In this document: positions 22,848-58,580 of the stretch, piece after piece
Layout: every line of letters begins with the position of its first letter
Numbering within the stretch: position 1 is the first letter of the stretch
DNA from: a virus
Direction: 5' to 3' (one strand)
IMG/VR virus record: IMGVR_UViG_3300036466_000585
Location: 8,275-72,274 of that record
Length of the DNA stretch: 64,000 nucleotides
Translations under genes and position numbers: made by a program
Notes under the pieces: model-generated
The model's input: only the letters and a program-made list of their open reading frames with translations
Told to the model about the DNA's origin: nothing
Database searches by the model: none

Positions 22848-22888
22848 GGAAAACCCCGCACCAACCCCTGACATCCCTACCGCATCAT
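22848..22888 (+). promoter_or_regulatory. putative late promoter LP1
   Basis: GGAAAA-N29-CATCAT upstream of protease. Confidence 0.7.
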
Positions 22889-22895
22889 GCCCCTT

Positions 22896-23747
22896 GTGGA
22901 AACAACCGTGAGGGGCATGACCATGCAGCAACCTCCGCTGATCAAGTACAACCTGAAGGATCGTGGCCGCCAGCATCGCGGCGTGGAGCGTCACTTCGAC
23001 ATTCCGGCCATCGTGGCCAGCATCAACGGCCCGGCCACTCAGGAGCGCGTGCAGACGCGCGGCATGCTGGGCTACTTCGGCCACTGGCCGCGCGTGCGCT
23101 TCGGCATGGAGCCCGCCGAGGGAGGTGTGGCCGACGGCAAGGCGCACGCCATCGAGCCCGCCGTGGTCACCACCCACCTGAAGGCCTACGACGACGGCAC
23201 CATCGAGCACCAGACCGAGTTCCTCGATACCGCCACCGGCCAGCTGGCGTCGCGCATGTACGCCAACCGGGTGGGCGGCTTCTCGACCGCCATCGATCCG
23301 CGCAAGCCCGAGCTCTACGGCTTCGATTGGGTCAACGACCCGAACTACTCGACCAACCGCGGCTATGACCTGGTGCTGGACAGCGTGACCAGCGGCGAGA
23401 TGACCTTCGACGACGTGCTGTCCGCCGAGCATGCCGAGCAGGTCGACGCCATGAACCGGCTGTTCGAGATGATGGAGGCCAACCTGCGCCTGGCCATGGA
23501 TTCGGCGACCCGCTTCGAGCACGAGAACAGCGAGCTTCTCGACCTGCTGAGCAAGCGCGAGGAGCAGGCCAGCCAGGCCGCCCTGGTCACCGACAGCGCG
23601 GCCGCTGCCGACACCGCTCGCCAGCTGGACCGCGACCGCCGCTTCTTCATGGACTCCGCGCTGCCGCGCTTTCAGGATCCCGAGACCCGGGAGGAGCACG
23701 ACCGCGACTACCTGCGCCTGAAGCGTCGGATGTTCTTCCATGTTTGA
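22896..23747 (+). CDS. prohead-processing protease (P1 Pro-like); start 22896 or 22917
   Basis: GMLGYFGHWPR, DDGTIEHQTEFLDT..G, GGFSTA, GFDWVNDPNY resemble recalled P1 Pro motifs. Confidence 0.75.
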   Translation: METTVRGMTMQQPPLIKYNLKDRGRQHRGVERHFDIPAIVASINGPATQERVQTRGMLGYFGHWPRVRFGMEPAEGGVADGKAHAIEPAVVTTHLKAYDDGTIEHQTEFLDTATGQLASRMYANRVGGFSTAIDPRKPELYGFDWVNDPNYSTNRGYDLVLDSVTSGEMTFDDVLSAEHAEQVDAMNRLFEMMEANLRLAMDSATRFEHENSELLDLLSKREEQASQAALVTDSAAAADTARQLDRDRRFFMDSALPRFQDPETREEHDRDYLRLKRRMFFHV

Positions 23748-24465
23748 GCCCGTCAAGGTCGGTCTCGGCGAGTTCCTGCAGGACTTCTACGCCGAAGTGG
23801 TGCCCACCACCAAGCCCCTGCAGGAGTTCGTCGAGCGCGGCTTCCCGTACTGCGCGGCCTGGGCGCCGGCGCGCATGGTCGACAAGGCCGAGGAGATGCT
23901 GTCGCAGTGGCAGCGCAACGACACGCACCAGGCCGCGACCCGGCCGCCCAGCCTGCCGGTGATCCTGGTCGCCGTGGCCAAGGACTGGACGCCGACCGAG
24001 CGCAGCTTCACCACGCAGATCGCCGACCCGGTGGACATCACCTTCCCCGACGACCCCAAGCAACGCTACTTCCGGGTGCGCACTGTGGCCGGCGAGGTCC
24101 GCGCCCAGCTGGCGTTCTTCGCCAGCGACGAGCCCACGGCCAAGAGCCTGGCCGCCCAGTTCCTGCTGTACCTGGATTCGCCCAGCCGTCGCCGCTTCCT
24201 GGCCCGCTACCCGTTCGCCGGGCTCGAGCACGAGTACCCGGCTCAGGTGGAGGCCCCGGACAACCCGGCGATGAACGTCGAGACCGGCAACAAGAACCTG
24301 TCCGTGCTGGCCGTCGACCTGGTGCTCAAGGTCACGGTGCCGCTGTTCATGGCGCCCAAGGCCGGCGAGCCCAACGACGGCAAGGGCGTTCCCGGTACCG
24401 ACGACCCGGCCGGCTATCCGCTGGTGTCCGAGGTCGATCCCGAGGAGAGAGAGGTCGCCCCATGA
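23740..24465 (+). CDS. tail completion/terminator protein (P1 gp24-like)
   Basis: LPVILVA...QLAFFASDE...LAVDLVLKVTVPLF pattern; recalled similarity. Confidence 0.5.
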   Translation: MFEPVKVGLGEFLQDFYAEVVPTTKPLQEFVERGFPYCAAWAPARMVDKAEEMLSQWQRNDTHQAATRPPSLPVILVAVAKDWTPTERSFTTQIADPVDITFPDDPKQRYFRVRTVAGEVRAQLAFFASDEPTAKSLAAQFLLYLDSPSRRRFLARYPFAGLEHEYPAQVEAPDNPAMNVETGNKNLSVLAVDLVLKVTVPLFMAPKAGEPNDGKGVPGTDDPAGYPLVSEVDPEEREVAP

Positions 24466-24947
24466 TCCAGCTGCAGGCCAATATCAGCGGCTTCGCCGGC
24501 AGGCCCGCCACGGTGCTGGGCGCCCTCGACGAGGAGACCGGCATCCTGGTGGTGGCCGCCGTGACCGACATCATGCCTCGCCGCGACGGCTGCGTGGTGA
24601 TCGACACCAACACGCGGGCCGACCGCGATTCGCTGTTCGAGTACGGCGACCTGAAGGAGGCCATCACCGCCTATTACGACCTCAAGGGCACGGTGGCCGC
24701 CGACGGCCGTAGCGCCTGCCTGCGCTTCATGGAGCGCGCCATGCGCGCCGACCCGGCCGGCGGCATCGAGATGGACGGCGTGGACACGACGGGCCCCATC
24801 TACCGCATCTCGCCGGACGCCGGCAATGCACAGGTGGGCGCCCTGGCGCTGTGCCGCTACGCCAAGCACTACGGCGCGGTGGCCGACACCCTGGCCATGG
24901 CCGATGAGCTCTCCCGGCTGCTGGCCGGGCAGGCGGTGACCATATGA
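24462..24947 (+). CDS. hypothetical morphogenesis protein
   Basis: GAGG RBS, ATGA coupling on both sides. Confidence 0.65.
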   Translation: MIQLQANISGFAGRPATVLGALDEETGILVVAAVTDIMPRRDGCVVIDTNTRADRDSLFEYGDLKEAITAYYDLKGTVAADGRSACLRFMERAMRADPAGGIEMDGVDTTGPIYRISPDAGNAQVGALALCRYAKHYGAVADTLAMADELSRLLAGQAVTI

Positions 24948-25282
24948 GCGTCGACCGCAAGAGCCAGGCCGCGCGGGTGTTCTATCGCCTGGTGCGCGAC
25001 TTCTCGCAGTCGGTGAAGCCCTGGGAGCAGGCCATCTATCACGACGTGGCCCCGGACGAGCGCTGGGACATCACGCTCACCGCGCGCAAGGTCTACGGCG
25101 ACGCCGGCGAGTTCCTGGCCATCATGGCCGCCGCCGGCATGGAGACCGTCGACCAGCCCCTGGAGCAACAGCGCCTGGTGCTGCCCAGCGCCGACCGGCT
25201 GCGCGCCTTCAAGCGCCGTGCCGGCTTCGAGTCGCGTGCCGACTACCGCGACCGCGACGGACCGACGTGGAGGACTGATTGA
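24944..25282 (+). CDS. baseplate protein, LysM-like (P1 gp26-like)
   Basis: DVAPDERWDITLTARKVYG...IMAAAG...LVLP. Confidence 0.6.
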   Translation: MSVDRKSQAARVFYRLVRDFSQSVKPWEQAIYHDVAPDERWDITLTARKVYGDAGEFLAIMAAAGMETVDQPLEQQRLVLPSADRLRAFKRRAGFESRADYRDRDGPTWRTD

Positions 25283-26334
25283 TGGCCGGTGATCCGAGGG
25301 CGATATCCAGGCTCAGCGGCAGCGCCGCCGAGGCGCGCGCGCGCGCGAGCGAGGACAGGCAGCAGCGCCAGGCGGCGCCCAACATCCTCAACCCCAACGA
25401 GGTGCGCGGCGACTACGACGCCAGCCGCATGCTGATGACCACCCTGGGCGGCGAGGTGCGCCCCGTCACCGCCGACGACCTGGCCATGTTCCGCCACAAC
25501 GCGCGCACGGCCGGCCAGCGCTTCAAGGGGGGTATCACCGCGCGCCAGGTCATCGACCTGTCGCTGTCCGTCGATCGCGACCGCGCCCGGCGGCAGATCA
25601 CCATGGCGGTACCGTCGGCGGCCCGTGGCGTGCGCAGCAGCAACCGCCAGGTGTCCGCCCTGGAAGTGCGCTTCATCACCAATGCCGGCCCGGACAGCGA
25701 CGTCAGTCGCCACCACGTCACGGTGGAGTTCACCGGCTACCAGACGGCCATCGCCTCCGGAGCGGAGAGCGTGAAGCGTGCGGCCGCCCGCCTGCGCAAG
25801 GAGGGCATTCGCTTCGACTGCGACTGTGGGCGCCACCGCTACTGGTACCGCTACATCGCCACTATCGGCCGCTACAACGCCGGCCGTCCCGAGACCGGCT
25901 ACCCCAAGATCCGCAACCCCAAGCTCAACGGCGTGGCGTGCAAGCACGTGCTGCGCGTCATGTCGGAGATCGAGGGCGGCAGCGCCGTGCAGGCTTTCCT
26001 GGCCCGCGCCATCGAGAAGGGGCGGCAGACCGAGGACGGCAGCGGCCACATTCGTCAGCGGCAGAAGGAGGCCGAGAAGCTGGCCGACAAGCAGGCCAAA
26101 CGCCCACGGGGCGGGCCTTCCAATACCGGTGACCGCGACTTCGACCGCGCCCGGCGTGCCCTGCGTCGGCAGAGCCGGGCCACCACCACCAAGCCCAAGC
26201 GCACGGCCAATGGCAGCAAGCGAATGCAGGCCCTGGGCGCTTCACCGGCCGCCCGTGACAAGCTGATCGCCACCGCCCGCGAGCTGGGCCTGACGCCCGA
26301 GCAGGCCATCGCCATTCTTCAGGGAGGCAAGTAA
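25282..26334 (+). CDS. SWIM zinc-finger morphogenesis protein (P1 gp25-like)
   Basis: FDCDCGRHRYWYRYIAT...PKIRNPKLNGVACKHV. Confidence 0.75.
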   Translation: MAGDPRAISRLSGSAAEARARASEDRQQRQAAPNILNPNEVRGDYDASRMLMTTLGGEVRPVTADDLAMFRHNARTAGQRFKGGITARQVIDLSLSVDRDRARRQITMAVPSAARGVRSSNRQVSALEVRFITNAGPDSDVSRHHVTVEFTGYQTAIASGAESVKRAAARLRKEGIRFDCDCGRHRYWYRYIATIGRYNAGRPETGYPKIRNPKLNGVACKHVLRVMSEIEGGSAVQAFLARAIEKGRQTEDGSGHIRQRQKEAEKLADKQAKRPRGGPSNTGDRDFDRARRALRRQSRATTTKPKRTANGSKRMQALGASPAARDKLIATARELGLTPEQAIAILQGGK

Positions 26335-26862
26335 ATGCTCAACAACGTGCCGACCGGCATCAACGCCATGGCCCGCAACGTCATCATCAACCACCCCAAC
26401 GCCTACAACTGCGAGGTCTACCGGCGCCGCGTTGGTCGCACCAGCGCCGATGAGGTCGGCGGCGCGCCCACGCTTGGCGGCATGGCGGTCATGAGCTCCG
26501 AGGACGAGGACGATATCCGCTGGGAGCTGGTCGGCCTGGGCTTCGCGCTGCCGGCCGAGCAGTTCCAGCCGTCGCCGATGATGGACCGTCGCGACGCCAA
26601 CAACGGCTATGCCGACGAGCTGCGCTTCCTGATCGAGCCCGAGGAGATGGTCGGCGACCCCGGCGGCTTCGAGGTGCTGAAGCGCGACGTCATCTACCTG
26701 CTGCTGGGGGAGGGCGAGAACGCGCCCAAGGTGGCCTACGAGATCGTCGAGGTCGAGGCCGTGGTCAACGTGCCGCCCTTCGTGCCGCGCTACGTGGTCA
26801 ACCGCCGCGACGACCTGGACATCATCGACCCCTCCGCCCCCGAGGACGACACCATTGCCTGA
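26335..26862 (+). CDS. putative head-tail connector protein
   Basis: GGAGG RBS; structural operon context. Confidence 0.5.
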   Translation: MLNNVPTGINAMARNVIINHPNAYNCEVYRRRVGRTSADEVGGAPTLGGMAVMSSEDEDDIRWELVGLGFALPAEQFQPSPMMDRRDANNGYADELRFLIEPEEMVGDPGGFEVLKRDVIYLLLGEGENAPKVAYEIVEVEAVVNVPPFVPRYVVNRRDDLDIIDPSAPEDDTIA

Positions 26863-26886
26863 CTTCAGCTGCTGCTGTCGATCGTT

Positions 26887-26909
26887 GCCGGCCTAGCGCC
26901 GGCTTTTTT
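26887..26909 (+). terminator. rho-independent terminator
   Basis: GCCGGC-CTAGC-GCCGGC-TTTTTT. Confidence 0.8.
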
Positions 26910-26922
26910 GTGCCGCAAACCC

Positions 26923-26963
26923 GGAAAAACGCCCGAAACCGGCCGTCGCGGCACCTTCAGACT
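26923..26963 (+). promoter_or_regulatory. putative late promoter LP2
   Basis: GGAAAA-N29-CAGACT directly after a terminator, upstream of capsid gene. Confidence 0.7.
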
Positions 26964-27022
26964 CGAACCATCCGGCCACCTGGTCGGCCTTGCACTTCCC
27001 TGTGAGCAAAGGAGAGAGGGCT

Positions 27023-28699
27023 ATGCCTCAGCACTACTACAGCCGCGAGACCGCCGAGGTCGCCGAGTTCATCGACAGCCTGAAGCAGGAGTCGGTCAAG
27101 GGCGGCGTCTTCGATTCGGCCGCCGCTGACGACTTCCTGGCGAATGCCATCAACCAGGCCACCGGCGTCAAGGTGCCGGAGAAACTGCAGGTCGCCCTCG
27201 ACGAGGCCGACGACAAGACCGCCAGCATGGTGACCCGCGCCATTCTGGACGGCGTGGCTGTCTACGAGCAGGCCCACGGCACGTCCTGCCCGGCCGACGT
27301 AATGCAGCAGGCGATGCACCTGGCCTACGCCACCACCAACGACGCCCGCCGCAAGATGGGCATGCAGCTCGACTCCGCGACCAGCGAGGGCCACGACGCG
27401 CACTCGCTCCAGCCCAACCGGGCGGTGGTCGCCATCCTGGCCACCCTGACCGAGGCTATCCCGTTCGCCCACTACCTGCCGGCGGACATCAACTCGAACG
27501 AGGCCAAGCTGGCCATCATGACTCACCAGGCCGGCCGCAACTACGGCAGCTACTCCGTGGGCGACATCATGGACGGCGGCAACAGCGGCGACGCCTACAT
27601 CACCTCCGGCCGCGAGCACAAGTGCACTATCGTGACCGACGTCGACGGCCCGACCGGCGACATTACCGGAAAGATCACCGCCGTGCAGGCCACGCCGGAG
27701 ACCTGCGACCCGGGCGCCGCCACCGTCAAGCTGCTGCGCGGTCGCTCCCTGGTCTACCTCGACGGCATGATCGTCGCCAAGGAGGTCAACGCCACCGGTA
27801 CCGGCGCCTCCACCGTCAGCGGTCAGGCCGAGATCGGCGGCACTACCCACCAGATCGGCGGCACCATCAACCCGGATAACGGCGACATCGCGCTGACCGC
27901 CAACCCGCCGCTGCCCGAGTCCGCGCATGTGCTGGTGGAGGCCTTCGTCGACTACGAGCGGGCCCCGGAGCTGACTCCGGAGATCATCACCGCCGTCGAC
28001 ACCTTCCAGCTGTTCGCTAAGCCGTGGCGCGTGACCACTCACCAGACCATCGACAGCCGCACGCAGATGGCCAACGAGCTGGGTCTGGATCCGTACAGCG
28101 AGGGCGTGCTCGGCATCCAGTCGCAGTTCGCCAACGAGCGCCACTACGAGGTGCTGCGCAAGGCTCGCCGCCTGGCGTCCCGCAACCAGGAGAGCTTCGA
28201 CTTCGCCTGGGCGACGCAGGGCGACTACAAGTCACGCTCCGACGTGTGGCGCGACTTCAACGCCGTCGTGGGCGCCGTCAGCCAGCGCATGGCGCTGACC
28301 ACCATGAACCACGGCGTCACCCACCTCTACGTGGGCGAGAACGTCGCCGCCCAGATGCAGGGCCTGCCCGCCGATATCTGGGAGCCCTCCGGTGTCGTCG
28401 AGCGCCCCGGCATCTTCCGCCTGGGCCGCCTGTTCGGCCGCTACGACGTCTACTACAGCCCCAAGGTGGTGCTCGAGAGCGGTGGCAGCGCCGAAGTGCT
28501 GTGCGTGGGCCGCGCCACCGACGTGACCCGCAACCCGTTCGTGCTGGGCGATGCCGTGCCGCCGACCGTGATCCCGCTGGCCACCAACGCCGACCTGAAA
28601 AGCGGCGCCGGCTTCTACGCGCGCAACTTCACCAGCGTGAACCCGCACCAGCCCAGCTCCACCGGCTGTGCGCTGATCAACGTCACCAACCTGTTCTAA
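27023..28699 (+). CDS. major capsid protein (P1 gp23-like)
   Basis: 558 aa, strong AGGAGAG RBS, highly biased codons, own promoter, precedes sheath. Confidence 0.75.
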   Translation: MPQHYYSRETAEVAEFIDSLKQESVKGGVFDSAAADDFLANAINQATGVKVPEKLQVALDEADDKTASMVTRAILDGVAVYEQAHGTSCPADVMQQAMHLAYATTNDARRKMGMQLDSATSEGHDAHSLQPNRAVVAILATLTEAIPFAHYLPADINSNEAKLAIMTHQAGRNYGSYSVGDIMDGGNSGDAYITSGREHKCTIVTDVDGPTGDITGKITAVQATPETCDPGAATVKLLRGRSLVYLDGMIVAKEVNATGTGASTVSGQAEIGGTTHQIGGTINPDNGDIALTANPPLPESAHVLVEAFVDYERAPELTPEIITAVDTFQLFAKPWRVTTHQTIDSRTQMANELGLDPYSEGVLGIQSQFANERHYEVLRKARRLASRNQESFDFAWATQGDYKSRSDVWRDFNAVVGAVSQRMALTTMNHGVTHLYVGENVAAQMQGLPADIWEPSGVVERPGIFRLGRLFGRYDVYYSPKVVLESGGSAEVLCVGRATDVTRNPFVLGDAVPPTVIPLATNADLKSGAGFYARNFTSVNPHQPSSTGCALINVTNLF

Positions 28700-28711
28700 G
28701 GGGAGTAGCAC

Positions 28712-29260
28712 ATGACTCGACTGGTGATTGGGCGCCCCGTGGTGGGCAAGACCGGCGCCAATGAAGCGGCCAAGCAGGCGTTCAGCGGGGAGAAGTTCCC
28801 CCTGACCGTGCGGGTCGTCAACAAGATGACCGTCGTCCTCAGTCTGCCCGAGGCCGGCATCAAGCTCCGCCCACTGGCCAGTGGCGTGGCCACCTTCCGC
28901 GACTTCGACCGCCTCCAGCGCGCGGTGTCGAGCCTCGAGCAGATTGCGCGCCTCAACAATGCCAAGGCGCTGGTCGAGCTCGTGGCCGGCGAGACCGCAG
29001 GCGAAGCCGACCAGGAAAGCGGTGGCGAGACCACTGGCGAGGGAGGTGGCCAGGCCTCGAGCGAAAGCGAAGCCGACGGCAATCAGTCCGGCGACCCGGC
29101 GGTTACCGTGATTCAGGACGACGACGAGGCCTTCATCGTCGAGGTGCAGGGCGTTCGCTTCGAGCCGCTGCGCAACCAGGTGTGGGAAGACGGCACGCTG
29201 ACCGCCGGTGGGCTCAAGGCCTTCGAGGAAGCCAAGGCCGCCGCCGAGTCCGCAGAGTAA
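28712..29260 (+). CDS. hypothetical virion protein
   Basis: GGGAG RBS; acidic Gly-rich linker. Confidence 0.65.
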   Translation: MTRLVIGRPVVGKTGANEAAKQAFSGEKFPLTVRVVNKMTVVLSLPEAGIKLRPLASGVATFRDFDRLQRAVSSLEQIARLNNAKALVELVAGETAGEADQESGGETTGEGGGQASSESEADGNQSGDPAVTVIQDDDEAFIVEVQGVRFEPLRNQVWEDGTLTAGGLKAFEEAKAAAESAE

Positions 29261-29274
29261 GGGGGTAGCAACCG

Positions 29275-30927: not shown

Positions 30928-30936
30928 GGAGAAACC

Positions 30937-31672: not shown

Positions 31673-31695
31673 GGCGGCCAGTGGCCGCCTTTTTT
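31673..31695 (+). terminator. rho-independent terminator
   Basis: GGCGGCCAGTGGCCGCC-TTTTTT. Confidence 0.75.
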
Positions 31696-32473: not shown

Positions 32474-33228
32474 TCCACTTCCCGGTGCTGCGCACCCGCC
32501 GACTGACGGTGCGCATGAAGGAGCTGGCGATGATCGACGCCATCGCCCTGGCGGCGATACCGCCGCACCTCAACGAGGAGGCCACCACTGCCTTTCTGCG
32601 CGCCGCCGTCGATGATGTGCAAGGGGTGGAGAGCCCCGAGGACTGGACGGTGCAGGAGCGCACCATGGCCGTCTGCCACTACATGGCGTCCACGCTCGAC
32701 GATGGCCCGGACTTCAGCCTGGCCGACGGCAAGGCCAGCTTCTCCGACTACCTGCTGGGTGAGCAGGACTACCCGGGGGAGTGCGTCGAGGTCGGCACCC
32801 TCGAAGGCGACCGCTGGGAGGCGCGCCACCTAACTGGGGCCCTGGCCGGCGCCATCGAGCGCCTGCAGGGTGAGCTGCCCGGGGTGTCCGGGCATGCCCA
32901 CTGGCGTATCGGCCGCATGGCGGCCCAGCTGATCCCCAACGGCGATGCCGTACCGTCTTCCGGCGACGTCGATGCCGCGCTGATCGAGCGCATGCGGGTC
33001 ATCGCCAACTACCCGGAGAGCGCCTTCGTCCAGCTGATGGACGCTTTCGAGCGCGCCCGGGCAGAGCTTGATCACCTGTTCCTGGTGGATACGGACGAGC
33101 ACGGCTTGATGGCCCTGCCAAGGGAGGGCAGCGCGGCTGAAAAGCCGCCTGCGCGATTTCCAGTTGGCACCTGCATCACCGACCTCGCGCTCTACCTGGG
33201 CGGAAAACCAGCGGCTGCTGGCCCATAG
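32470..33228 (+). CDS. tail/baseplate assembly chaperone (P1 PmgB-like)
   Basis: IDAIAL..IPP...EEATTAFL...PEDWTVQER. Confidence 0.55.
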   Translation: MIHFPVLRTRRLTVRMKELAMIDAIALAAIPPHLNEEATTAFLRAAVDDVQGVESPEDWTVQERTMAVCHYMASTLDDGPDFSLADGKASFSDYLLGEQDYPGECVEVGTLEGDRWEARHLTGALAGAIERLQGELPGVSGHAHWRIGRMAAQLIPNGDAVPSSGDVDAALIERMRVIANYPESAFVQLMDAFERARAELDHLFLVDTDEHGLMALPREGSAAEKPPARFPVGTCITDLALYLGGKPAAAGP

Positions 33229-33442
33229 CCTCGCCCTATATTCGTCGACATCGCTGCCCGATGCGCTACGCATGACGCACAGCGAGGCCGAGGCCTTCTT
33301 CGAGGGCAAGGCCTACGCCGATTGGCGCAAGGGCAAAGAGCAGGAACTGAAGCTGCAGGCGGCCGTGAATGACCGGCTCAACGGGGTGATTCGCGCCTGT
33401 GGCGCCATCGTGAAGACAGTGGCATCGCTAGGGCGCCGGTGA
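33164..33442 (+). CDS. small overlapping ORF (possible frameshift extension of upstream chaperone)
   Basis: +1 frame overlap of 65 nt; LALYSSTSLPDALRMTHSEAEAFF; no good RBS. Confidence 0.45.
   Translation: MAPASPTSRSTWAENQRLLAHSLALYSSTSLPDALRMTHSEAEAFFEGKAYADWRKGKEQELKLQAAVNDRLNGVIRACGAIVKTVASLGRR
33202..33242 (+). promoter_or_regulatory. putative late promoter LP3 (lysis cassette)
   Basis: GGAAAA-N29-TATATT. Confidence 0.6.
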
Positions 33443-35395: not shown

Positions 35396-35436
35396 GGAAA
35401 ACCGAGACCCTTGCAGCCTTGGGGCGGCGATACGCT
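35396..35436 (+). promoter_or_regulatory. putative late promoter LP4
   Basis: GGAAAA-N29-TACGCT upstream of tail tube gene. Confidence 0.7.
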
Positions 35437-38581: not shown

Positions 38582-38622
38582 GGAAAAGCCGACCCGGCCC
38601 ACCCCTCCCCCTCCCATAGCAT
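38582..38622 (+). promoter_or_regulatory. putative late promoter LP5
   Basis: GGAAAA-N29-TAGCAT upstream of darA-like gene. Confidence 0.7.
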
Positions 38623-49752: not shown

Positions 49753-49793
49753 GGAAAACGCCCCGCTGATCCTGCCCTGGTATGGCCCACCAT
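49753..49793 (+). promoter_or_regulatory. putative late promoter LP6 (leaderless portal mRNA)
   Basis: GGAAAA-N29-CACCAT-N6-ATG. Confidence 0.7.
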
Positions 49794-49799
49794 CGGGCC

Positions 49800-52237: not shown

Positions 52238-52239
52238 CC

Positions 52240-55200
52240 ATGGCATTAAACCACGACAATCAGGGCTTTCTGGTCGGCGAGCGGCTGGATGCCGACGACA
52301 TCACCGGTCGCCTCGACTCCATTCGCGATGAGATACGGTCATTGCGTCACGACCTTGCGGGAAGCGTGGTCAGCGCGCCGCCGGCGCCACCCAAGACATC
52401 GGCAGACGAAGGCGTCAGCGGAAGTCGTGCGGCCCCCGACCCGCAGCGCAGCCGGTCATCCCGGCCTAGCGCCGAAGCAGGTCGCGACGAGGTGGTCATT
52501 CGCATTGATCGCCCGGCCGTAGCAGCCACGCCGCCGGAAAGGCGGGCGCCTGGACGCTTCGTTTATAGCTCGGCGGGGGAAGCAAAAGCCGACGAATCGA
52601 GAGAGGAAGCTTCGTCCGCCGCTGTCGCCATGCCCATCCGTGAGCGCGACGCCAGCGACCGCTATGCCTCCCGTGGCGTGGCGGCTTCGCCTGTCCGCGA
52701 CCTTTCCGGGTCCCGGCCAAGGGTCGGAGGGGGGCGCGGCCCTGACGGCCGTTTCGTCTCGGGCGGCGGCGACCCATCGGCAGGCGATGACGAGGCCGGG
52801 CTGCTGTCGCGCTCCATCGATGGGCTAAGTGATCGACTGAGTGGTGCCGTACAGGAGATGGGGGCCGGTACCGAGGATGCCGACCCTGCCGTCAAAGCGT
52901 TCAACGAGGTTGCCCAGCCGCTGCAACGCGGCTTCAGCAAGATCCTTGGGGATGGCGATAGCCGCAAGCAGGAGCGCTGGTACCGCCGATTCTGGATGAT
53001 GATGCGCGGCTCTCGCCGCGAGGATCGCGCGGCCGACAAGCAACAGCGCCGCATCCTGAAGAACATCGAGCGCAAGCCGACCGGTGGTGACAACGGCTCA
53101 ATGCTGTGGCGTGGTCTCATGCTGCTGCTGGCTCCCATCACCGGCATGCTGTCGCTGCTGGGCGGCCTGCCGATGGCGCTGGCCGGAGCGGTGATCACCG
53201 GCCTAAAGGCGCTGTTGACCGCCATGGGGCTCGGCCGCGTGGCGAGACGCATGACCGTGCCCAGCAGCGGCCGCTCCACGCCCCGTCGTGGTGGCGGAGG
53301 GTCGGCCGGAAGGGCTGCCGCCAGGGGCGGGGCGTCCGGAACGCCAGCCGCTCGACCGTCGGGCCAAGGCGGCACCACGTCACGCCCCGGGGCATCGACG
53401 ACTCAAGGCGGCAGTCGATTTGGCCGCCTGCTGAAAGGCGGGGCGCGTCGCATCCCGGGTATTGGTGCGCTGCTGGGCCTGGGGTTCATGGCCAGCGACA
53501 TCGCCGCCAGCGAAGGCAGCAACGCCAGCCGGGCCGAGAAAGACGTCACGACCGGGCGCGCCATCGGTGGCGGCCTGGGCGGCATCGGCGGCATGGCCGG
53601 CGGCGCCGCTGCGGGCGCGGCCATCGGCTCCGTGGTGCCGGGCATCGGCACCGCCATCGGAGGCATCATCGGCGCCGCGGCGGGCGGCTTCTTCGGCGGC
53701 AGTGCCGGCGAGGTCGTCGGCGAGAAGGTCGGCGGTTGGGTCACCGACCTTCGTAAGTCCAACCTGGTGCAGAGCCTCTCCCAGCGCTGGGAGTACGCCA
53801 CCACCTTCATGTCGAGCCTGTGGGAGCAGACCAGCGAAGGCGTGTCGGCGCGCTGGGAGTCGGCCACCGCCACCTTCAGCAGCCTGTGGGCGTCTGCCAC
53901 GCAGGGCCTGTCCGACCGCTGGGAGGCGCTGTCGACCAGCATCGCCGAGCGCTGGACGGCCGTCACCGACGAGATGAAAGGGCTGTGGGACAGTGCCGTC
54001 AGCCTGGCCGCCGAGGGCTGGGGGGCGCTGACCGACATGGCGGAAGGCGCCAACGCCTGGATCGCAGAGAAGACCGGCGTCGACGTGGCGGAAACCGCCC
54101 GCGAGACTGGGCAATGGGTCTCTGACCGCGCCATCGAGACGTCCGAGTGGGTCTCCGAGCGCGCGGGCAGTGCGGCCGACTGGGCGGGCGAGCGCGCTGA
54201 CGCCGCCGCTGCCTGGACGGCCGACAGGGCTGAGGCGGCCGCCGGCTGGCTGGGCAACAAGCTGTCATCCGGGGCGAGCTGGCTGGGCGAGAAGACCGGT
54301 ATCTCGTCGGCCGTGGGCATGGTGCGCAACGCTCATAACGAGGCGGCTGCCGTGCCTGCCCTGACGCAGGCCATGGCCGAGGCCGGCATCACCGACCCCA
54401 ACGAGCAGGCGGCCTTCATGGGGCAGATGCACCACGAGTCCAGCGGCTTTCGCACCATGGAGGAGAGCTTCAACTACCGCAGCGCCGACCGGATCATGGA
54501 GGTCAGCGCCACGGCTCGAAACCAGGGCCGCGAAGCGGTCGAGGCGGCCATGGCACAGGGTCCGGAGGCGGTCGCCGAGCTCATGTATGGCGGGCGCATG
54601 GGCAACACAGAGGCTGGTGACGGCTACCGTTATCGCGGGCGTGGCTTCACCCAGCTGACCGGGCGCGACAACTACACGGCGGCCAGCGAAGCGCTGGGCG
54701 TCGACCTGGTGAACAACCCCGACCTGGCCGCCGACCCCGAGGTGGCGGCGCGCATCGCCACCTGGTACTGGCAGAGCCGTGACGGACTATCTGAGGCAGC
54801 CAGACAGGGCGATACCCGAGAAGTCACCCGGCTGATCAACGGCGGCACCAACGGCCTGGCCGACCGCCAGGCGGCAACGGACGAATACCTGGCCGCCGCC
54901 CGTTCCGGCGAGTTCGCCGTCTCGCCATCGGCCGGCGGCGCGTCCTCCATCGCCGGAGTGGTTGCACCGTCGCCCGGTGAGTCCGTGAGCGCGACGGTTG
55001 CGGGCGCAGCAAGGGCTGACCGCCTGGCGGCGCTCGGCCTGGCCTCCACTCGCCAACCGGTGGGGGCCTCTCCACAGCCGGCCGTCACCATACCCGCCCC
55101 CCGGGCTCCAGCCCTGGCCGAGGCGCCGAGCGTCAGCGCGCCGATGTCGTCACCGCAGGGGCAAGGAGGCGATCGCCAGCCCTCTCGCGGGCCAGAGGAC

Positions 55201-55269
55201 GTCAGCCGCGACGTGCCGGATCGTCGCATCGCCCATATCGTCACCGGCGCCTACAGCGGTATGGGATAG
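52240..55269 (+). CDS. tape measure protein with C-terminal GH19 lysozyme-like domain
   Basis: TM segment, Gly-zipper, 11-residue Trp periodicity; HHESSGF, YGGRMGN, DGYRYRGRG..QLTGRDNY, TRLINGGTNGL. Confidence 0.85.
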   Translation: MALNHDNQGFLVGERLDADDITGRLDSIRDEIRSLRHDLAGSVVSAPPAPPKTSADEGVSGSRAAPDPQRSRSSRPSAEAGRDEVVIRIDRPAVAATPPERRAPGRFVYSSAGEAKADESREEASSAAVAMPIRERDASDRYASRGVAASPVRDLSGSRPRVGGGRGPDGRFVSGGGDPSAGDDEAGLLSRSIDGLSDRLSGAVQEMGAGTEDADPAVKAFNEVAQPLQRGFSKILGDGDSRKQERWYRRFWMMMRGSRREDRAADKQQRRILKNIERKPTGGDNGSMLWRGLMLLLAPITGMLSLLGGLPMALAGAVITGLKALLTAMGLGRVARRMTVPSSGRSTPRRGGGGSAGRAAARGGASGTPAARPSGQGGTTSRPGASTTQGGSRFGRLLKGGARRIPGIGALLGLGFMASDIAASEGSNASRAEKDVTTGRAIGGGLGGIGGMAGGAAAGAAIGSVVPGIGTAIGGIIGAAAGGFFGGSAGEVVGEKVGGWVTDLRKSNLVQSLSQRWEYATTFMSSLWEQTSEGVSARWESATATFSSLWASATQGLSDRWEALSTSIAERWTAVTDEMKGLWDSAVSLAAEGWGALTDMAEGANAWIAEKTGVDVAETARETGQWVSDRAIETSEWVSERAGSAADWAGERADAAAAWTADRAEAAAGWLGNKLSSGASWLGEKTGISSAVGMVRNAHNEAAAVPALTQAMAEAGITDPNEQAAFMGQMHHESSGFRTMEESFNYRSADRIMEVSATARNQGREAVEAAMAQGPEAVAELMYGGRMGNTEAGDGYRYRGRGFTQLTGRDNYTAASEALGVDLVNNPDLAADPEVAARIATWYWQSRDGLSEAARQGDTREVTRLINGGTNGLADRQAATDEYLAAARSGEFAVSPSAGGASSIAGVVAPSPGESVSATVAGAARADRLAALGLASTRQPVGASPQPAVTIPAPRAPALAEAPSVSAPMSSPQGQGGDRQPSRGPEDVSRDVPDRRIAHIVTGAYSGMG

Positions 55270-55271
55270 CC

Positions 55272-55312
55272 GGAAAAGCAGCCCCCTGCCTGCGTCGGCG
55301 TCGCCGTAGCAT
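55272..55312 (+). promoter_or_regulatory. putative late promoter LP7 (leaderless)
   Basis: GGAAAA-N29-TAGCAT-N6-ATG. Confidence 0.7.
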
Positions 55313-55318
55313 GGCGCC

Positions 55319-55624
55319 ATGAAGACGATAACCGGTGATGACATTCAGGCGATGGTGCGCCACTGGCTGGAAACGCCAGTCAACGGCTACCTGGGATCCG
55401 GCTACGGCGCCGACACCAAGAGCCTGCTGCAGCGTGCGCAGTCGGATGAGGAGCAGGCAGACCGCTATCTGCGCAAGCTGAAGCGGGACGTCAGTGTGCT
55501 CGAGGTTCTGCCCAATAGCGCGGTGTCCCTGTACGGCACGCCCGAAGGGGTCGACCGGCTGCGTCTGACCCTGGACGTTGCCGGGCGTTCCTACGACCTC
55601 AACGATATCGAGGGCTCCCGGTAA
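55319..55624 (+). CDS. baseplate wedge protein, gp25/W-like (P1 PmgA-like)
   Basis: VRHWLETPVNGYLGSGYG; 101 aa upstream of J-like gene. Confidence 0.7.
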   Translation: MKTITGDDIQAMVRHWLETPVNGYLGSGYGADTKSLLQRAQSDEEQADRYLRKLKRDVSVLEVLPNSAVSLYGTPEGVDRLRLTLDVAGRSYDLNDIEGSR

Positions 55625-57123
55625 TGCTCACCCGTGAAGACTTCCAGCAGGCCATCGAAGACAGCGTTGCGCGCTACCCGGCGGTCGGCGCCCTTCATCG
55701 CGCGCGCGATCCTCGCATTCTCCAGCACCTGGACGCGATGGCCACGATGCTGGCCATGTACTCGCAGCAGCTGGAAGTAGCACAGGCCGAGCCCTTCGAG
55801 AAGGTGCGAGACGCTACGGTGCTGGCCGATGCCTCCATGCGCGGCCTGGTGCCCAAGTCACAGCCCGCGCGCGTAAGCGTGCGCCTGCACAACGCCGGCA
55901 CCACCGCCTTCTCTGCCAGCCCGGGGCGTCCGCTAATCGACTCCAGCGGTCGACCGTTTCGCGTCGAAACGCCCATCGATGCTGGCCCCGGCGACACGGT
56001 GACCTTCGAGGCCGTGCAGCTGCATGAGAAGGCGCGCACGCACACCGTGCAGGAGAGTCGAGCCTTCTATGCCGTGGAGCTCGACATGGCTGATGACGAC
56101 TCCTGGCTGTGCGGGCTTCACGTGACCGACGCTGACGGCGCCTACACCCATCGCGAGCGCTACACCAACACCCTGGCAGATGAGCGCGTCTATCACGTCG
56201 AGGCTGATGAGCGTCAGCGCGTCTACGTGCGCTTCGGGCAGGACGGCGTGGTCGGCGTTCAGCCCAGTGAAGGGGCTGAGCTGACGTTGACCACGTACTA
56301 CTCTCTGGGGCGAATCGACGACTTCGCCCCCGGTTCGCCCATGGCCTTCGAGACCATGCAGGGGCCGGCCGAAGCGCAGCTCGAGATGAGCCTTCACGAG
56401 GTGCTGTCCAGCGGGGAGAACCCGCCCTCCATGCGCGCGCTTCGCGAGCTGGCCAAGTACCCCAGCGTCTACAACCACAACGCAGTTTTTCTCGGAGAGT
56501 TCGACTTCCTGGTGCGTCGCCACTTCCCGTCCCTGCAGTTCCTATCGGTCTGGAATGAGGGCGTGGAGGAGCGCTACCGCGGCATGAGTGTGGACAACAT
56601 CAATGCGCTGTTCGTGGCCTGCCTCTCGGCCGCCGGCGGCGAGCCCGTCCTGAGCCAGGCGCCCGGAGAGACGCTAGAGCCTGTCGAGCTGTCCGAGGAG
56701 GATCTGACCGCCACCCATCGCGCCATCCGAGACAAGATCCATGCCGCCGATGACAGCTATCGGATCCGCTTCTATTCCGCCATCCGGGCGCCGCTGCCGG
56801 TCAGCATCGCCGCTACGGTGGCCACCAGCTACGACGAAGGTGTGGTCAAGGACCAGGTTCGCCAGGTCATGCTCGAAGAGTTCGGCGAACAGGCCGACCA
56901 ATCCCGACGCGGCAACGCCACGCCGCTCTATCAGCAGGTCTACCAGGTGCTTCGTCAGCGCGTTCCGGCCCTGAGCGTGGGGCGTGCCGACTTGCGCGTC
57001 ACCATTGGCGACGACACCGGCGACAGCCGTCCTGAACTGTGGCGCTACGTCTCGCCGGAGAGCCTGGAGGTCAACGTCTCCGCAGGCAACGTCAATGTGC
57101 CGTTCTGGGGGTCAGGGTTTTGA
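55624..57123 (+). CDS. baseplate wedge protein, J-like (P1 BplA-like)
   Basis: VRFGQDG..G..P, AVFLGEFDFLVR; position after W-like gene. Confidence 0.75.
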   Translation: MLTREDFQQAIEDSVARYPAVGALHRARDPRILQHLDAMATMLAMYSQQLEVAQAEPFEKVRDATVLADASMRGLVPKSQPARVSVRLHNAGTTAFSASPGRPLIDSSGRPFRVETPIDAGPGDTVTFEAVQLHEKARTHTVQESRAFYAVELDMADDDSWLCGLHVTDADGAYTHRERYTNTLADERVYHVEADERQRVYVRFGQDGVVGVQPSEGAELTLTTYYSLGRIDDFAPGSPMAFETMQGPAEAQLEMSLHEVLSSGENPPSMRALRELAKYPSVYNHNAVFLGEFDFLVRRHFPSLQFLSVWNEGVEERYRGMSVDNINALFVACLSAAGGEPVLSQAPGETLEPVELSEEDLTATHRAIRDKIHAADDSYRIRFYSAIRAPLPVSIAATVATSYDEGVVKDQVRQVMLEEFGEQADQSRRGNATPLYQQVYQVLRQRVPALSVGRADLRVTIGDDTGDSRPELWRYVSPESLEVNVSAGNVNVPFWGSGF

Positions 57124-58580
57124 GCATCAGTGACGAGTTCGACTTCCCGGGGGCGCGTCTCCCCGACATAGCGCCGCTGCGCGAGAGCTTCGCGAACGGG
57201 CAGATCGAGGAGGAGCTGAAGGCGCTGTTCGGCGAGCTGTTCGAGGGCGTCGCCCACGACACCTTTGACGCCAGCGTACTGGGCACGCCGCATCTGGGGA
57301 GCTTCGAGCTGGTCCGTCGCACGGTGAACCATGATGGCCTGGTGTTGCTCAAGGGTGAGCGTGAGGAGGCGGCTACCCGTTACCTGTACCGGGCCTGGAA
57401 GTCCGGCGACGTGCAGAAGCGCGGGTTGCACTTCCTGCGCACCTACCTGCAGCTGCTGTTCCCGGGGCAAACCGAGGTCAAGCAGCTGTGGCACTACAAA
57501 AGTGCCGCCTACGGCCAGGGGTTCGTGCTCAACGAACCTCGCAATCCCTACTGGTTCCACTTCCTGGGCTCGCCCGGACTGAAGCTGGATGGCAGCTGGA
57601 AGGTGGGGCGCCCCCTCGCCCTGGATGCCGACGAGCCACCGTATTACAAGCCGGCAACGGATGATCTCTTCCTGACCTCACGTGTCGAGATACTGCTCGG
57701 CCTTGAGGAACTGTCCCGCTATTCCGAGGGGGGGCGGGCGGCAACGTCCGGGCTGATCGACATCATTCGATCCGTGATCCCCGCCCGCCTGGTACCGCTG
57801 TTCAAGTTCTGGTTGCGTTACGTGATCGGTGTCGATATCAGCGCACGCAGCCATTTGCTGATGGAGAAGCGATCGACGGCTCGCTACCCGTGGTGCGGTC
57901 GCGTCCTGACCGAGGAGCCGGCGCACAAGTGGTCGCTGGGTATCGACGGCGAGATGGTCAAGCTGCCCCAGCCTTTCGGCACCTTCCGACTAGGGGAGAA
58001 GCGGGGCGGCAAGAGCGTCTGGCGGCTGCGCAACTGCCGCATCGACAGCGAGGTCGCCGTGGCCAAGTCGCCGGCCGAGGCGTCGGCTTATCGGCTTCCG
58101 GCCCTGGGCGAGACCGGCCGCAAGCTGGACGGCGGGTGGCGGCTTTCCGGTCGCCAGCTGGACGCCATGAGCTGGAAGCGCGCAGAGAAGGGCGTCGATC
58201 TTCCCCAGTCTGTCGAGGCCTCCGCCACTCACCACGAGCATATCCGCATCGACTACCCGGAAACGCCGCGCAAGCTGGGAAGCGCGTGGCGTCTCAACGG
58301 CACCTGGCGCCTGGGTGATGGTCGGCGTCTTGCCCATGCCTGGGCGGGGCAGACGCTCAACGGCTTTCGTATTTCGCGACAGGGCGTGGTCGCCGAGTCA
58401 GTGGCATCCCTTCATGTCGCGGCCGTCTGTGGCGCGTCTCCGGTACGGCTCCCGAGGCGGAAAACGGAGGCCGAGGGCGGTGATGGGGTAGAGCACACTT
58501 GGAGCCTGCCGCTGAACGGCCAGTGGAAGCTGGGCGGCCTGTCGCCACCCGAATTCGAGCTAACCATTACCCGCGTGTGA
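57120..58580 (+). CDS. baseplate/tail-fibre attachment protein (I-like)
   Basis: TTG overlapping upstream TGA; KRGLHFLRTYLQLL; repeated L(D/N)GxW(K/R). Confidence 0.65.
   Translation: MSISDEFDFPGARLPDIAPLRESFANGQIEEELKALFGELFEGVAHDTFDASVLGTPHLGSFELVRRTVNHDGLVLLKGEREEAATRYLYRAWKSGDVQKRGLHFLRTYLQLLFPGQTEVKQLWHYKSAAYGQGFVLNEPRNPYWFHFLGSPGLKLDGSWKVGRPLALDADEPPYYKPATDDLFLTSRVEILLGLEELSRYSEGGRAATSGLIDIIRSVIPARLVPLFKFWLRYVIGVDISARSHLLMEKRSTARYPWCGRVLTEEPAHKWSLGIDGEMVKLPQPFGTFRLGEKRGGKSVWRLRNCRIDSEVAVAKSPAEASAYRLPALGETGRKLDGGWRLSGRQLDAMSWKRAEKGVDLPQSVEASATHHEHIRIDYPETPRKLGSAWRLNGTWRLGDGRRLAHAWAGQTLNGFRISRQGVVAESVASLHVAAVCGASPVRLPRRKTEAEGGDGVEHTWSLPLNGQWKLGGLSPPEFELTITRV
58459..58499 (+). promoter_or_regulatory. 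putative late promoter LP8 (tail-fibre operon)
   Basis: GGAAAA-N29-CACACT inside the 3' end of the upstream gene, 90 nt before the next start. Confidence 0.55.

What the first reader, a model, noticed from the sequence alone, without database searches (positions are those of the whole stretch)
22848..58499. Eight-copy bipartite late-promoter code: GGAAAA-N29-YANNNT
Seen: GGAAAA at 22848, 26923, 33202, 35396, 38582, 49753, 55272 and 58459 is followed after exactly 29 nt by CATCAT, CAGACT, TATATT, TACGCT, TAGCAT, CACCAT, TAGCAT and CACACT. All have Y-A-n-n-n-T, keeping the key A and T of a sigma70 -10 box. The spacers are unrelated and there is no -35. Six sites are in intergenic gaps heading late blocks (protease, capsid, tube, darA, portal, baseplate). 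Two lie in the 3' ends of genes just ahead of the lysis cassette and the tail-fibre/DGR block. Known: P1 uses multiple activator-dependent late promoters with a different element centred near -22. Inference: an activator site at about -47 to -42 defines a late regulon that I do not recognise as described.
Basis: partly seen in the sequence, partly recalled or inferred. Interest (0 to 1): 0.85.

Follow-up and report, generated by a model that had tools for sequence, protein, structure and literature searches.

The report
Conserved GGAAAA-box late promoters, P1-like prophage
A family of P1-like prophages switches on its virion and lysis genes from about eight promoters that share a GGAAAA box exactly 28-29 bases upstream of a -10 element, a late-gene code that differs from that of phage P1 and is probably read by a previously uncharacterised phage regulator.

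Summary
GGAAAA-N29-YANNNT occurs 8 times, all on the + strand (0.16 expected). In the whole 72-kb provirus, 8 of 11 +-strand GGAAAA carry the hexamer at exactly N29.

The window holds a P1-like structural and lysis module joined to a lambdoid early region. The sites head the late operons at places largely syntenic with P1's late promoters.

The same box and spacing recur at homologous positions in relatives sharing 45-80% protein identity, while the spacers diverge. In many copies an ATG lies 6-7 nt after the hexamer, which implies leaderless mRNAs.

The host genomes show no enrichment outside the prophage. P1's -22 box, Lpa, Mor/C and sigma factors are all absent.

The only conserved non-structural gene is a 224-aa XRE-HTH/coiled-coil protein (17483-18157), directly upstream of terS, where lpa sits in P1. 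Its C-terminal tail resembles a beta-clamp-binding motif. I infer it is the activator, but this is not shown.

Verdict: a new variant of activator-dependent phage late promoters that lack a -35 element.

The parts
22848..22888 (+). Late promoter 1: GGAAAA box, N29, CATCAT. It heads the protease/scaffold-like block that starts at 22887. Predicted TSS about 22895.
   Evidence: The site is intergenic, directly after ORF 22477-22842.
26923..26963 (+). Late promoter 2: GGAAAA, N29, CAGACT. It heads the 569-aa gene at 26990, which is MCP-like in Rb1's annotation. Predicted TSS about 26970.
   Evidence: GGAAAA upstream of the homologue in 7 of 7 genomes. An intrinsic terminator lies just upstream.
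26887..26909 (+). Intrinsic terminator (GC stem plus T6) that closes the preceding operon immediately before promoter 2.
31673..31695 (+). Intrinsic terminator after the sheath operon (29275-31650).
33202..33242 (+). Late promoter 3: GGAAAA, N29, TATATT. The box lies in the last 26 nt of the PmgB-like gene. It heads a small conserved ORF (33272-33442) and the holin/endolysin cassette. Predicted TSS about 33249.
35396..35436 (+). Late promoter 4: GGAAAA, N29, TACGCT. It heads the tail-tube operon (35508). Predicted TSS about 35443.
   Evidence: 7 of 7 genomes.
38582..38622 (+). Late promoter 5: GGAAAA, N29, TAGCAT. It heads the DarA/DarB-like giant genes. An ATG at 38629, 6 nt after the hexamer, opens a 16-codon ORF whose TGA overlaps the probable main start ATG at 38676.
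49753..49793 (+). Late promoter 6: GGAAAA, N29, CACCAT. The portal ATG at 49800 lies 6 nt after the hexamer, so the mRNA is predicted to be leaderless.
55272..55312 (+). Late promoter 7: GGAAAA, N29, TAGCAT. The ATG of the PmgA-position gene at 55319 lies 6 nt after the hexamer (predicted leaderless). It heads the baseplate operon.
   Evidence: 7 of 7 genomes show GGAAAA-N29-nAnnnT-N6/7-ATG.
58459..58499 (+). Late promoter 8: GGAAAA, N29, CACACT, inside the 3' end of 57039-58580. It heads the tail-fibre/DGR block (58589 onward). Predicted TSS about 58506.
17483..18157 (+). Candidate late activator: a 224-aa XRE-type HTH (residues about 30-100), two long helices, and a C-terminal tail ...QPELELVYT. 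Its stop overlaps the terS start.
18154..20674 (+). terS (18154-19158) and terL (19151-20674). With the HTH gene they form the first block conserved in all relatives. No GGAAAA promoter lies ahead of them.

Best explanation
The eight sites are the late promoters of an integrated P1-like myophage.

Host sigma-70 RNA polymerase uses the nAnnnT hexamer as a -10 element. There is no -35 element. In its place sits a box with core GGAAAA (usually CGGAAAAC, followed by a T-free stretch) at -47 to -42, held 28-29 bp from the -10.

I propose that the box is bound by a phage activator that recruits or positions the polymerase. This would switch on protease/capsid, sheath, lysis, tube, Dar, portal, baseplate and tail-fibre operons together. 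At three of the eight promoters transcription would begin at the A of an ATG, giving leaderless mRNAs.

The most likely activator is the 224-aa XRE-HTH/coiled-coil protein encoded at 17483-18157. It lies at the end of the early operon, directly upstream of terS, the position that lpa holds in P1.

What is shown: the motif, its statistics, its placement, its conservation, and the geometry relative to the ATG.

What is inferred: promoter activity (about 0.85), dependence on a phage activator (about 0.7), and the identity of the activator (about 0.5).
For: Statistics in this record.
- 8 hits against 0.16 expected.
- 8 of 11 +-strand GGAAAA have the hexamer at exactly N29, and other spacers give 0-1.

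Placement.
- All sites run the same way as the late genes and sit at operon heads.
- Terminators lie at 26887 and 31673.
- No canonical sigma-70 promoter lies at any of the eight sites.
- Positions parallel the annotated P1 promoters LPpro (portal), LPdar, LPs (tail fibre), LPsit (tube) and LPlyz.

Conservation.
- 39 portal-anchored loci, which include near-identical copies, were pooled. Spacer 29 gives 48 (+) against 4 (-), and spacer 28 gives 24 against 6. Other spacers give 0-13.
- Five whole relatives give late-strand/other-strand counts of 8/0, 7/0, 10/1, 7/0 and 5/2. The reversed-pattern control gives 0-1.
- The isolated Xanthomonas phage Rb1 gives 6/0 at N29.
- Across seven genomes, the box is present upstream of the homologous gene as follows: PmgA-position gene 7 of 7, MCP 7 of 7, tube 7 of 7, Dar 7 of 7, and portal 6 of 7 (Rb1 has GGAACA). 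Spacers are unrelated.

The hexamer behaves as a -10. Among 109 non-redundant sites, an ATG lies 6 nt (21 sites) or 7 nt (7 sites) after it. Every other offset from 0 to 9 has 0-4.

Phage-specific. In the Ectothiorhodospira mobilis genome, 8 of 13 hits lie in the 36-kb prophage (control 3). In Halomonas salipaludis, 7 of 31 lie in the prophage (control 19).

Activator candidate.
- The HTH gene, terS and terL are the only non-late genes conserved in 5 of 5 relatives.
- Pfam HTH_31 scores 29.7 bits against a cut-off of 27.
- The recognition helix LGYANSxKLxKIE is nearly invariant across 29 homologues of 29-85% identity.
- The fold matches XRE regulators, including R-M controller proteins.
- No Lpa, Mor or sigma-70 region 2 is found in this record or in G001-G004 and Rb1.
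- The distant Acinetobacter phage ABMM1 has a different recognition helix and a different box at the same geometry. GGAAC[CT]-N28-nAnnAT occurs 13 times at N28 on +, against 0-3 at other spacers and 0 on -. Shuffles give a mean of 0.9 and a maximum of 4.
Against: No RNA or binding data exist. No RNA run was listed, which is not evidence either way.

XRE-HTH proteins usually bind inverted repeats as dimers. This box is asymmetric. The only hints of a second half-site are W at +14/+15 and T-depletion at +9 to +11.

All 72 IMG/VR loci with an HTH homologue of about 25% identity or more that could be judged sit beside the same P1-like module. Co-occurrence of protein and motif may therefore reflect shared ancestry only.

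The ABMM1 covariation is a single contrast.

The record is estimated to be 82% complete, so a gene could be missing. However, the 100%-complete G003 and the complete Rb1 also lack other known activator families.

The HTH protein could instead be a repressor or a packaging or replication accessory.

No promoter of this type precedes terS/terL, so these would have to be expressed from the early operon.
Confidence: 0.55

Rival explanations
1. These are real late promoters, but the box is read by a different factor. This could be an unrecognised small phage protein, one encoded in a missing part of the record, or a host protein modified after induction. The HTH protein at 17483-18157 would then do something else, such as repression, packaging or replication.
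For: Nothing links the HTH protein to the box except position, conservation and one covariation contrast. The box is asymmetric, which is unusual for XRE dimers. The record is 82% complete.
Against: No other non-late gene is conserved in 5 of 5 relatives. Lpa, Mor and sigma-70 region 2 are absent from this record, four relatives and Rb1. The motif is not enriched in the host genomes outside the prophage, which argues against a host regulon.
Confidence: 0.22
2. No activator is involved. The A-tract at -45 to -42 acts as a proximal UP-element-like contact for the alpha-CTD of RNA polymerase at promoters that lack a -35. Late timing would come from something else, such as template copy number or relief of repression.
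For: The position of the A4 run matches the proximal UP subsite, about -46 to -38 (recalled from the literature, not from a call). The promoters have a -10 only.
Against: The two G and the preceding C are as conserved as the A run. The flanks are C-rich and T-free rather than A/T-rich. ABMM1 uses GGAAC[CT], which is not an A-tract, at the same distance. The host genomes show no excess of the pattern.
Confidence: 0.1
3. The sites are not promoters. The repeated box-plus-hexamer would be some other DNA or RNA signal at gene-block boundaries, such as a recombination or module-exchange site or an RNA processing site.
For: The sites lie at module boundaries, and the phage family is mosaic.
Against: The second element has the A2/T6 signature of a -10. 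An ATG lies 6-7 nt after it in 28 of 109 sites. All sites face the direction of the genes. Terminators precede some of them. P1 has mapped late promoters at the syntenic places.
Confidence: 0.04

Closest known systems
Phage P1 late promoters (LPpro, LPdar, LPs, LPsit, LPlyz, LPmat, LPpac), activated by Lpa with host SspA
   Same: Several activator-dependent promoters that have a TANNNT -10 and no -35 head syntenic late operons: portal, dar, tail fibre, tube and lysis. In P1 the activator gene sits directly upstream of the terminase genes. The virion genes are homologous.
   Different: P1's element is AAGTGACTn, annotated as the '-22 region', 4 nt from the -10. Here the box is GGAAAA, 28-29 nt from the -10. 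No P1-type box is present, and there is no Lpa homologue. No late promoter precedes terS. The role of SspA is untested.
Phage Mu late and middle promoters, activated by C and Mor with the beta sliding clamp (PMC12867686; abstract and sections 8 and 11 read)
   Same: The promoters depend on sigma-70 and have a -10 but no evident -35. The small phage activator carries a clamp-binding motif at its C-terminus (Mu C: QPDLF). The candidate here ends QPELELVYT, and most relatives end QLDLVF.
   Different: The candidate is an XRE-HTH protein with no Mor domain. Mu has 4 late promoters, according to the paper. The Mu C site is dyad-symmetric (recalled). Clamp binding here rests only on motif likeness and a weak complex prediction.
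P2/186/P4 late promoters, activated by the Ogr/B/Delta zinc-finger proteins
   Same: Several late operons lack a good -35 and are activated from an upstream site (recalled).
   Different: The recalled site is a dyad centred near -55 and bound by a zinc-finger protein. No zinc-finger activator is conserved here. Rb1 has a small zinc-finger ORF between the HTH gene and terS, but this window does not.
Controller (C) proteins of restriction-modification systems and other XRE-HTH activators
   Same: These give the best structural matches to the HTH domain (C.AhdI 1y7y, C.BclI 2b5a, E about 4e-3). They are XRE proteins that can activate from sites overlapping the -35 region (recalled).
   Different: They are about 70-100 aa and bind palindromic C-boxes. 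The candidate has an extra helical part of about 120 aa, a C-terminal tail and an asymmetric box.
Leaderless phage mRNAs, such as lambda cI from PRM
   Same: The start codon lies at the predicted +1.
   Different: Here the arrangement recurs at late structural operons (portal, PmgA-position gene, Dar) and is conserved across relatives. The lambda example is recalled, not taken from a call.

Membership tests
P1-type (Lpa-dependent) late promoter | A 9-bp '-22' box (AAGTGACTn) placed 4 nt upstream of a TANNNT -10 | tested here: not met
   One search gives the seven annotated P1 promoters. One search found 2 matches with up to 2 mismatches in the window against 2.0 expected, and none at the eight sites.
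P1-type (Lpa-dependent) late promoter | An Lpa-family activator is encoded by the phage | tested here: not met
   tblastn best E = 2. hhalign probability is 0.2%. phrog_1704 has no hit in G000 or in G001-G004 and Rb1.
P1-type (Lpa-dependent) late promoter | A -10 of TANNNT type without a -35, at the heads of late operons | tested here: met
Mor/C-dependent promoters (Mu) | The activator carries a Mor domain (PF08765) | tested here: not met
Mor/C-dependent promoters (Mu) | The activator carries a clamp-binding motif (consensus QL[SD]LF, PMC12867686 section 8) and needs the clamp | tested here: inconclusive
   30 of 51 homologues match [QE][LM][DESA][LMV].[FYL] in their last 14 residues, and one has QLSLF. 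The complex prediction with host DnaN gave weak support: 0.47 against a best control of 0.00. Dependence on the clamp cannot be tested here.
Canonical sigma-70 promoter | A -35 TTGACA-like hexamer 16-18 nt upstream of the -10 | tested here: not met
   No information in the spacer columns. The consensus scan found none at the sites.
ECF/alternative-sigma promoter | A phage-encoded sigma factor, and a -35/-10 pair at a spacing of about 16-17 | tested here: not met
   No Sigma70_r2 was found. No conserved element lies 16-17 nt after the box.
XRE-family HTH regulator (candidate activator) | A five-helix HTH_3/HTH_31 domain | tested here: met
   HTH_31 scores 29.7 bits, above the cut-off of 27. AF2 pLDDT is 83.9. 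Foldseek matches C.AhdI, SinR and 434 repressor. The PDB profile search hits ImmR at 2e-8.
Leaderless mRNA | The transcript 5' end lies at the A of the start codon | not testable with these tools
   Only the geometry is shown: an ATG lies 6-7 nt after the hexamer in 28 of 109 sites. No RNA run was listed.

The most novel reading that the evidence does not exclude
The XRE-HTH protein is a new family of late-gene activator that tethers itself to the host beta sliding clamp through its C-terminal QLDLVF/QPELELVY tail. GGAAAA-box promoters would then fire only on replicating phage DNA. This would be a third, independently evolved case of clamp-coupled late transcription, after T4 gp45/gp33/gp55 and Mu C. 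It would be combined with leaderless late mRNAs and spread across prophages of Beta- and Gammaproteobacteria.
Probability: 0.25. Interest if true: 0.85.

Novelty: new variant of a known kind. Interest (0 to 1): 0.62.

Why it matters
The motif gives a simple sequence rule (GGAAAA, 28-29 nt, nAnnnT) for predicting late operons and transcription starts in a widespread but unstudied group of P1-like prophages. Their hosts include Ectothiorhodospira, Halomonas, Xanthomonas, Burkholderiaceae, Nitrosomonas and others.

It shows that homologous virion modules can keep the positions of their promoters while exchanging the promoter code and the activator.

It nominates a new activator family. If the clamp-like tail is functional, this would support the recent suggestion, made from phage Mu, that coupling late transcription to replication through the sliding clamp is common.

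It also supplies conserved candidates for leaderless translation of structural genes in Proteobacteria.

Tried and rejected
Chance was rejected.

P1-type late promoters and Lpa were rejected. Mor/C-family activators and a phage sigma factor were rejected.

An ECF-like -35/-10 pair inside the 29-nt spacer was rejected, because no column there is conserved.

A host regulon was rejected, because the pattern is at control level outside the prophages.

Megablast of 22000-46000 against isolated phages gave only short endolysin hits, so relatives were found by protein search instead.

The five ORFs at 20625-22842 were considered as activator candidates. They have no PHROG or Pfam family and are not conserved in relatives, so they were set aside.

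I looked for HTH homologues in unrelated phage backgrounds as an independent test of the link between protein and motif. The test could not be made: all homologues of about 25% identity or more lie beside the same P1-like terS/terL/protease/MCP module. Eight weak, HTH-domain-only hits (L138-L145) were not informative.

A GGAAAA about 300 nt inside the HTH gene of 13 relatives comes from conserved W-E-K codons. It cannot be told apart from a coding coincidence.

The Foldseek search of the HTH model gave only generic XRE domains and nothing for the helical part.

Supplements of PMC12867686, including its CBM alignment of the Mor/C family, could not be seen.

For one search I dropped 8 of the 53 hits. 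They lie outside the late module: G000 71162; G001 74390; G003 80255, 81147, 85239 and 93759; G004 57401 and 59518.

For one search, redundant sites were removed by spacer identity of 60% or more (164 reduced to 109). Some chance hits remain in that set.

Full report
**1. The observation**

All eight are on the + strand. Dinucleotide-preserving shuffles give 0.16 on average (largest 2), and none of 100 reaches 8.

The window is bases 8275-72274 of a single 72,274-bp provirus record of 66% G+C. In that record GGAAAA is rare: 11 copies on + and 4 on -. Eight of the 11 +-strand copies have the hexamer after exactly 29 nt. Every other spacer from 10 to 49 gives 0 or 1, and the - strand gives 0 at 29.

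Allowing one mismatch in the box adds only scattered intragenic hits.

**2. What surrounds the sites**

PHROG scans show a mosaic temperate phage.
- The early region is lambdoid-like. It holds RecE/RecT/SSB on the - strand, a repressor, Ant, a DnaC-like loader, NinB and a RuvC-like resolvase.
- Next come terS and terL.
- From 22887 onward there is a P1-like late region. It holds PmgG- and PmgB-like proteins, sheath, tube, Hdf- and Ulx-like proteins, two giant Dar-like genes, portal, a tape-measure/lysin protein, baseplate, tail fibres and a DGR.
- By portal protein identity, the closest isolated phages are Xanthomonas phage Rb1 (63%), Acinetobacter phage ABMM1 (33%), then D6 and P1 (25-27%).

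Six boxes are intergenic and two lie in the 3' ends of genes. All eight precede the first gene of a block: protease-like, 569-aa capsid-like, lysis, tube, Dar, portal, baseplate and tail fibre.

Strong + strand terminators lie at 26887 (immediately before promoter 2) and at 31673.

A sigma-70 consensus scan found no -35/-10 pair in 17001-37000. It found one, inside a gene, in 37001-57000.

In P1's own annotation, late promoters stand upstream of the portal (LPpro), the lyd-dar block (LPdar), the tail fibres (LPs), the tube block (LPsit) and lyz (LPlyz). The places are therefore largely syntenic.

The P1 element itself is different. It is AAGTGACTn, placed four bases before the -10. Nothing like it is enriched in the window.

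**3. Conservation**

Portal homologues brought in 16 bacterial genome loci and 23 IMG/VR loci. The bacterial loci come from Ectothiorhodospira mobilis at 99% identity, Halomonas salipaludis at 89%, and Burkholderiaceae, Azonexus, Pusillimonas, Nitrosomonas, Methylobacter and others.
- Upstream of the portal gene, the box, the distance and a TAnnnT-like hexamer recur, while the intervening bases differ.
- Pooled over these 39 loci, some of which are near-identical, the spacer histogram on the gene strand peaks at 29 (48) and 28 (24). Other spacers give 0-13, and the opposite strand is flat.
- Five whole relatives carry 8, 7, 10, 7 and 5 copies on the late strand against 0, 0, 1, 0 and 2 on the other. 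The reversed control pattern gives 0-1.
- Rb1 carries 6 at N29.

Homologous promoters were compared in seven genomes whose proteins are 45-80% identical.
- The PmgA-position gene has GGAAAA-N29-nAnnnT-N6/7-ATG in 7 of 7.
- The capsid-like, tube and Dar genes have the box in 7 of 7.
- The portal gene has it in 6 of 7; Rb1 has GGAACA at the same distance.
- The tail-fibre gene has it in 6 of the 6 genomes that have a homologue.
- The protease-like gene has it in only 3-4 of 7.
- The first base of the hexamer can be T, C, G or A. A at position 2 and T at position 6 are kept.

The flanks add little information:
- C before the box in 34 of 45 sites;
- almost no T at +9 to +11 (0 of 45 each; 4, 6 and 4 of 109 in the larger set);
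- W at +14/+15.

**4. The hexamer behaves as a -10**

Among 109 non-redundant sites, an ATG begins 6 nt after the hexamer in 21 and 7 nt after it in 7. Every other offset from 0 to 9 has 0-4. That is the distance at which sigma-70 polymerase starts.

The start codons of the portal gene (49800) and the 55319 gene would therefore be the first bases of their mRNAs.

At the Dar promoter, the ATG at 38629 opens a 16-codon ORF whose stop overlaps the probable main start at 38676.

This geometry was not part of the pattern searched for, so it is independent support for promoter function and implies leaderless mRNAs. Direct RNA evidence could not be obtained, because no RNA run was listed.

**5. Phage-specific, not a host regulon**

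In the E. mobilis genome, 8 of the 13 exact matches lie in the 36-kb prophage, all on one strand. The control pattern gives 3.

In H. salipaludis, 7 of 31 lie in the prophage, and the control gives 19.

**6. Who reads the box**

Several known readers are absent.
- No Lpa: tblastn best E = 2 and hhalign 0.2%, with no phrog_1704 hit.
- No Mor domain.
- No sigma-70 region 2.
- These searches covered this record, four relatives (one estimated 100% complete) and Rb1.

A comparison of all ORFs with five relatives shows that the early genes are not shared. The conserved part begins with ORF 17483-18157, followed by terS, terL and the late genes.

A third-position G+C plot shows that 17483-18157 is a separate 224-aa gene whose stop overlaps the true terS start at 18154.

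The protein has the following features.
- An XRE-type HTH: HTH_31 scores 29.7 bits against a cut-off of 27.
- Two long helices, at residues 107-169 and 180-211; AF2 mean pLDDT is 83.9.
- A disordered tail.
- Foldseek matches only the HTH domain, best to R-M controller proteins, SinR and 434 repressor.
- Its 51 database homologues carry only generic names.
- The recognition helix is nearly invariant over 29-85% identity. This fits an invariant box.
- Rb1 has the same order, resolvase-HTH-(zinc-finger ORF)-terS-terL, and its HTH protein is a clear family member (E = 4e-50).

The gene thus occupies the position that lpa has in P1, directly before pacA/pacB. It is the only conserved candidate expressed before the late promoters. 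I take it as the most likely activator, at about 0.5.

Weaknesses of this assignment:
- The box is asymmetric, while XRE dimers usually bind palindromes.
- Every homologue I could place sits beside the same module, so co-occurrence is not independent evidence.

**7. A contrast that helps**

Acinetobacter phage ABMM1 is much more distant and has 37% G+C. It has no excess of GGAAAA-N29.

Its late genes are instead preceded by GGAAC[CT]-N28-nAnnAT. This pattern occurs 13 times at spacer 28 on the gene strand, against 0-3 at other spacers and 0 on the other strand. Shuffles give a mean of 0.9 and a maximum of 4.

At the same place (resolvase-HTH), ABMM1 encodes an HTH protein that aligns with this family only over the HTH domain (hhalign 92.5%) and has a different recognition helix.

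So the geometry is older than the box, and the box differs where the helix differs. This is one contrast only.

**8. The tail**

Most family members end in QLDLVF. The close relatives of this window's protein end in QPEL[ED]LVY, and one member has QLSLF. Overall, 30 of 51 match a loose pattern in their last 14 residues.

Rb1's protein ends QLTMFNIPDTK, and ABMM1's ends QIGLFTE.

The bacterial clamp-binding consensus is QL[SD]LF. Phage Mu's late activator C carries QPDLF at its C-terminus and needs the beta clamp to activate late promoters that lack a -35 (PMC12867686; abstract and sections 8 and 11 read; found).

A complex prediction was run between the E. mobilis DnaN (L064) and residues 150-224 of the protein.
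- Verdict: weak support.
- Score 0.47, against 0.00 for the best of 3 controls.
- The mark was reached by 58 of 80 solved complexes and 2 of 110 mismatched pairs.
- At 0.60 or under, it was reached by only 7 of those 80 and by both of the mismatches that passed.
- The runs agree in at least 66% of their contacts, and the partner's pLDDT is at least 52.
- Because clamp-peptide complexes are solved, the pass may reflect likeness only.

I therefore keep clamp coupling as the most novel reading, at about 0.25, and not as the main claim.

**9. Comparison and novelty**

Functionally this is the known kind of system seen in P1 (Lpa), Mu (C/Mor) and P2 (Ogr): several late promoters that lack a -35 and are switched on together by a phage factor.

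It is not a member of any of those families, because the defining box or protein was tested and not found.

Searches of the held literature found no description of the motif: 'Xanthomonas phage Rb1' (0 papers); GGAAAA + late promoter + phage (0 papers); P1-like/prophage/late promoter/Lpa/motif (7 papers listed, none on this). The ABMM1 search listed 19 papers, which I did not read. Subscription journals are not covered.

I rate it a new variant of a known kind.

**10. Limits**

Nothing here is experimental.

Noticed in passing
L065/L066 (Acinetobacter phage ABMM1, OQ471969.1), e.g. 2680, 9502, 28444, 30708, 38492, 40316, 62785, 69059, 73769: This distant P1-like phage has its own late-promoter code, GGAAC[CT]-N28-nAnnAT. 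It occurs 13 times on the gene strand, usually 27-34 nt before a start codon. One copy lies upstream of its own resolvase-HTH genes (59517).
   Followed up: partly
window 38629-38679: A 16-codon ORF starts 6 nt after the -10 of the Dar promoter. Its TGA overlaps the probable ATG (38676) of the 1408-aa gene. It may be a leaderless upstream ORF coupled to the main gene.
   Followed up: partly
window 33272-33442: A small ORF of about 56 aa lies between promoter 3 and the holin. It is conserved in 5 of 5 relatives (as part of ORF 33164-33442) and has no assigned function.
   Followed up: no
window 20625-22842: Five ORFs in a lower-G+C stretch (61%) lie between terL and the first late promoter. They have no PHROG or Pfam family and are mostly absent from relatives, so they are probably cargo.
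   Followed up: partly
window 14095-14160: Tandem 15-nt repeats (CGGATACGGCTCAAC-like) encode PDTAQ repeats inside ORF 13649-14683 of the early region.
   Followed up: no
window 58979-63420: A DGR cassette (Avd 61716-62138, reverse transcriptase 62161-63420) lies directly after the 899-aa tail-fibre gene. Relatives also carry the RT (4 of 5).
   Followed up: no
L090, L093-L095, L099, L100, L108-L110, L115, L128, L133, L134, about 300 nt into the HTH gene: A GGAAAA-N28/29-nAnnnT match lies inside the HTH gene of 13 relatives. It arises from conserved W-E-K codons. It could be a terS promoter or a coding coincidence. This window has no such site.
   Followed up: partly
L062 1811-2041 (Xanthomonas phage Rb1): Rb1 has a 76-aa Cys-rich ORF, annotated as a TFIIE-alpha-like finger, between the HTH gene and terS. 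It is absent from this window.
   Followed up: no
window 38265-38555 and 37776-38255: A PAAR-motif protein and an Hdf-like protein are encoded just before the Dar promoter.
   Followed up: no
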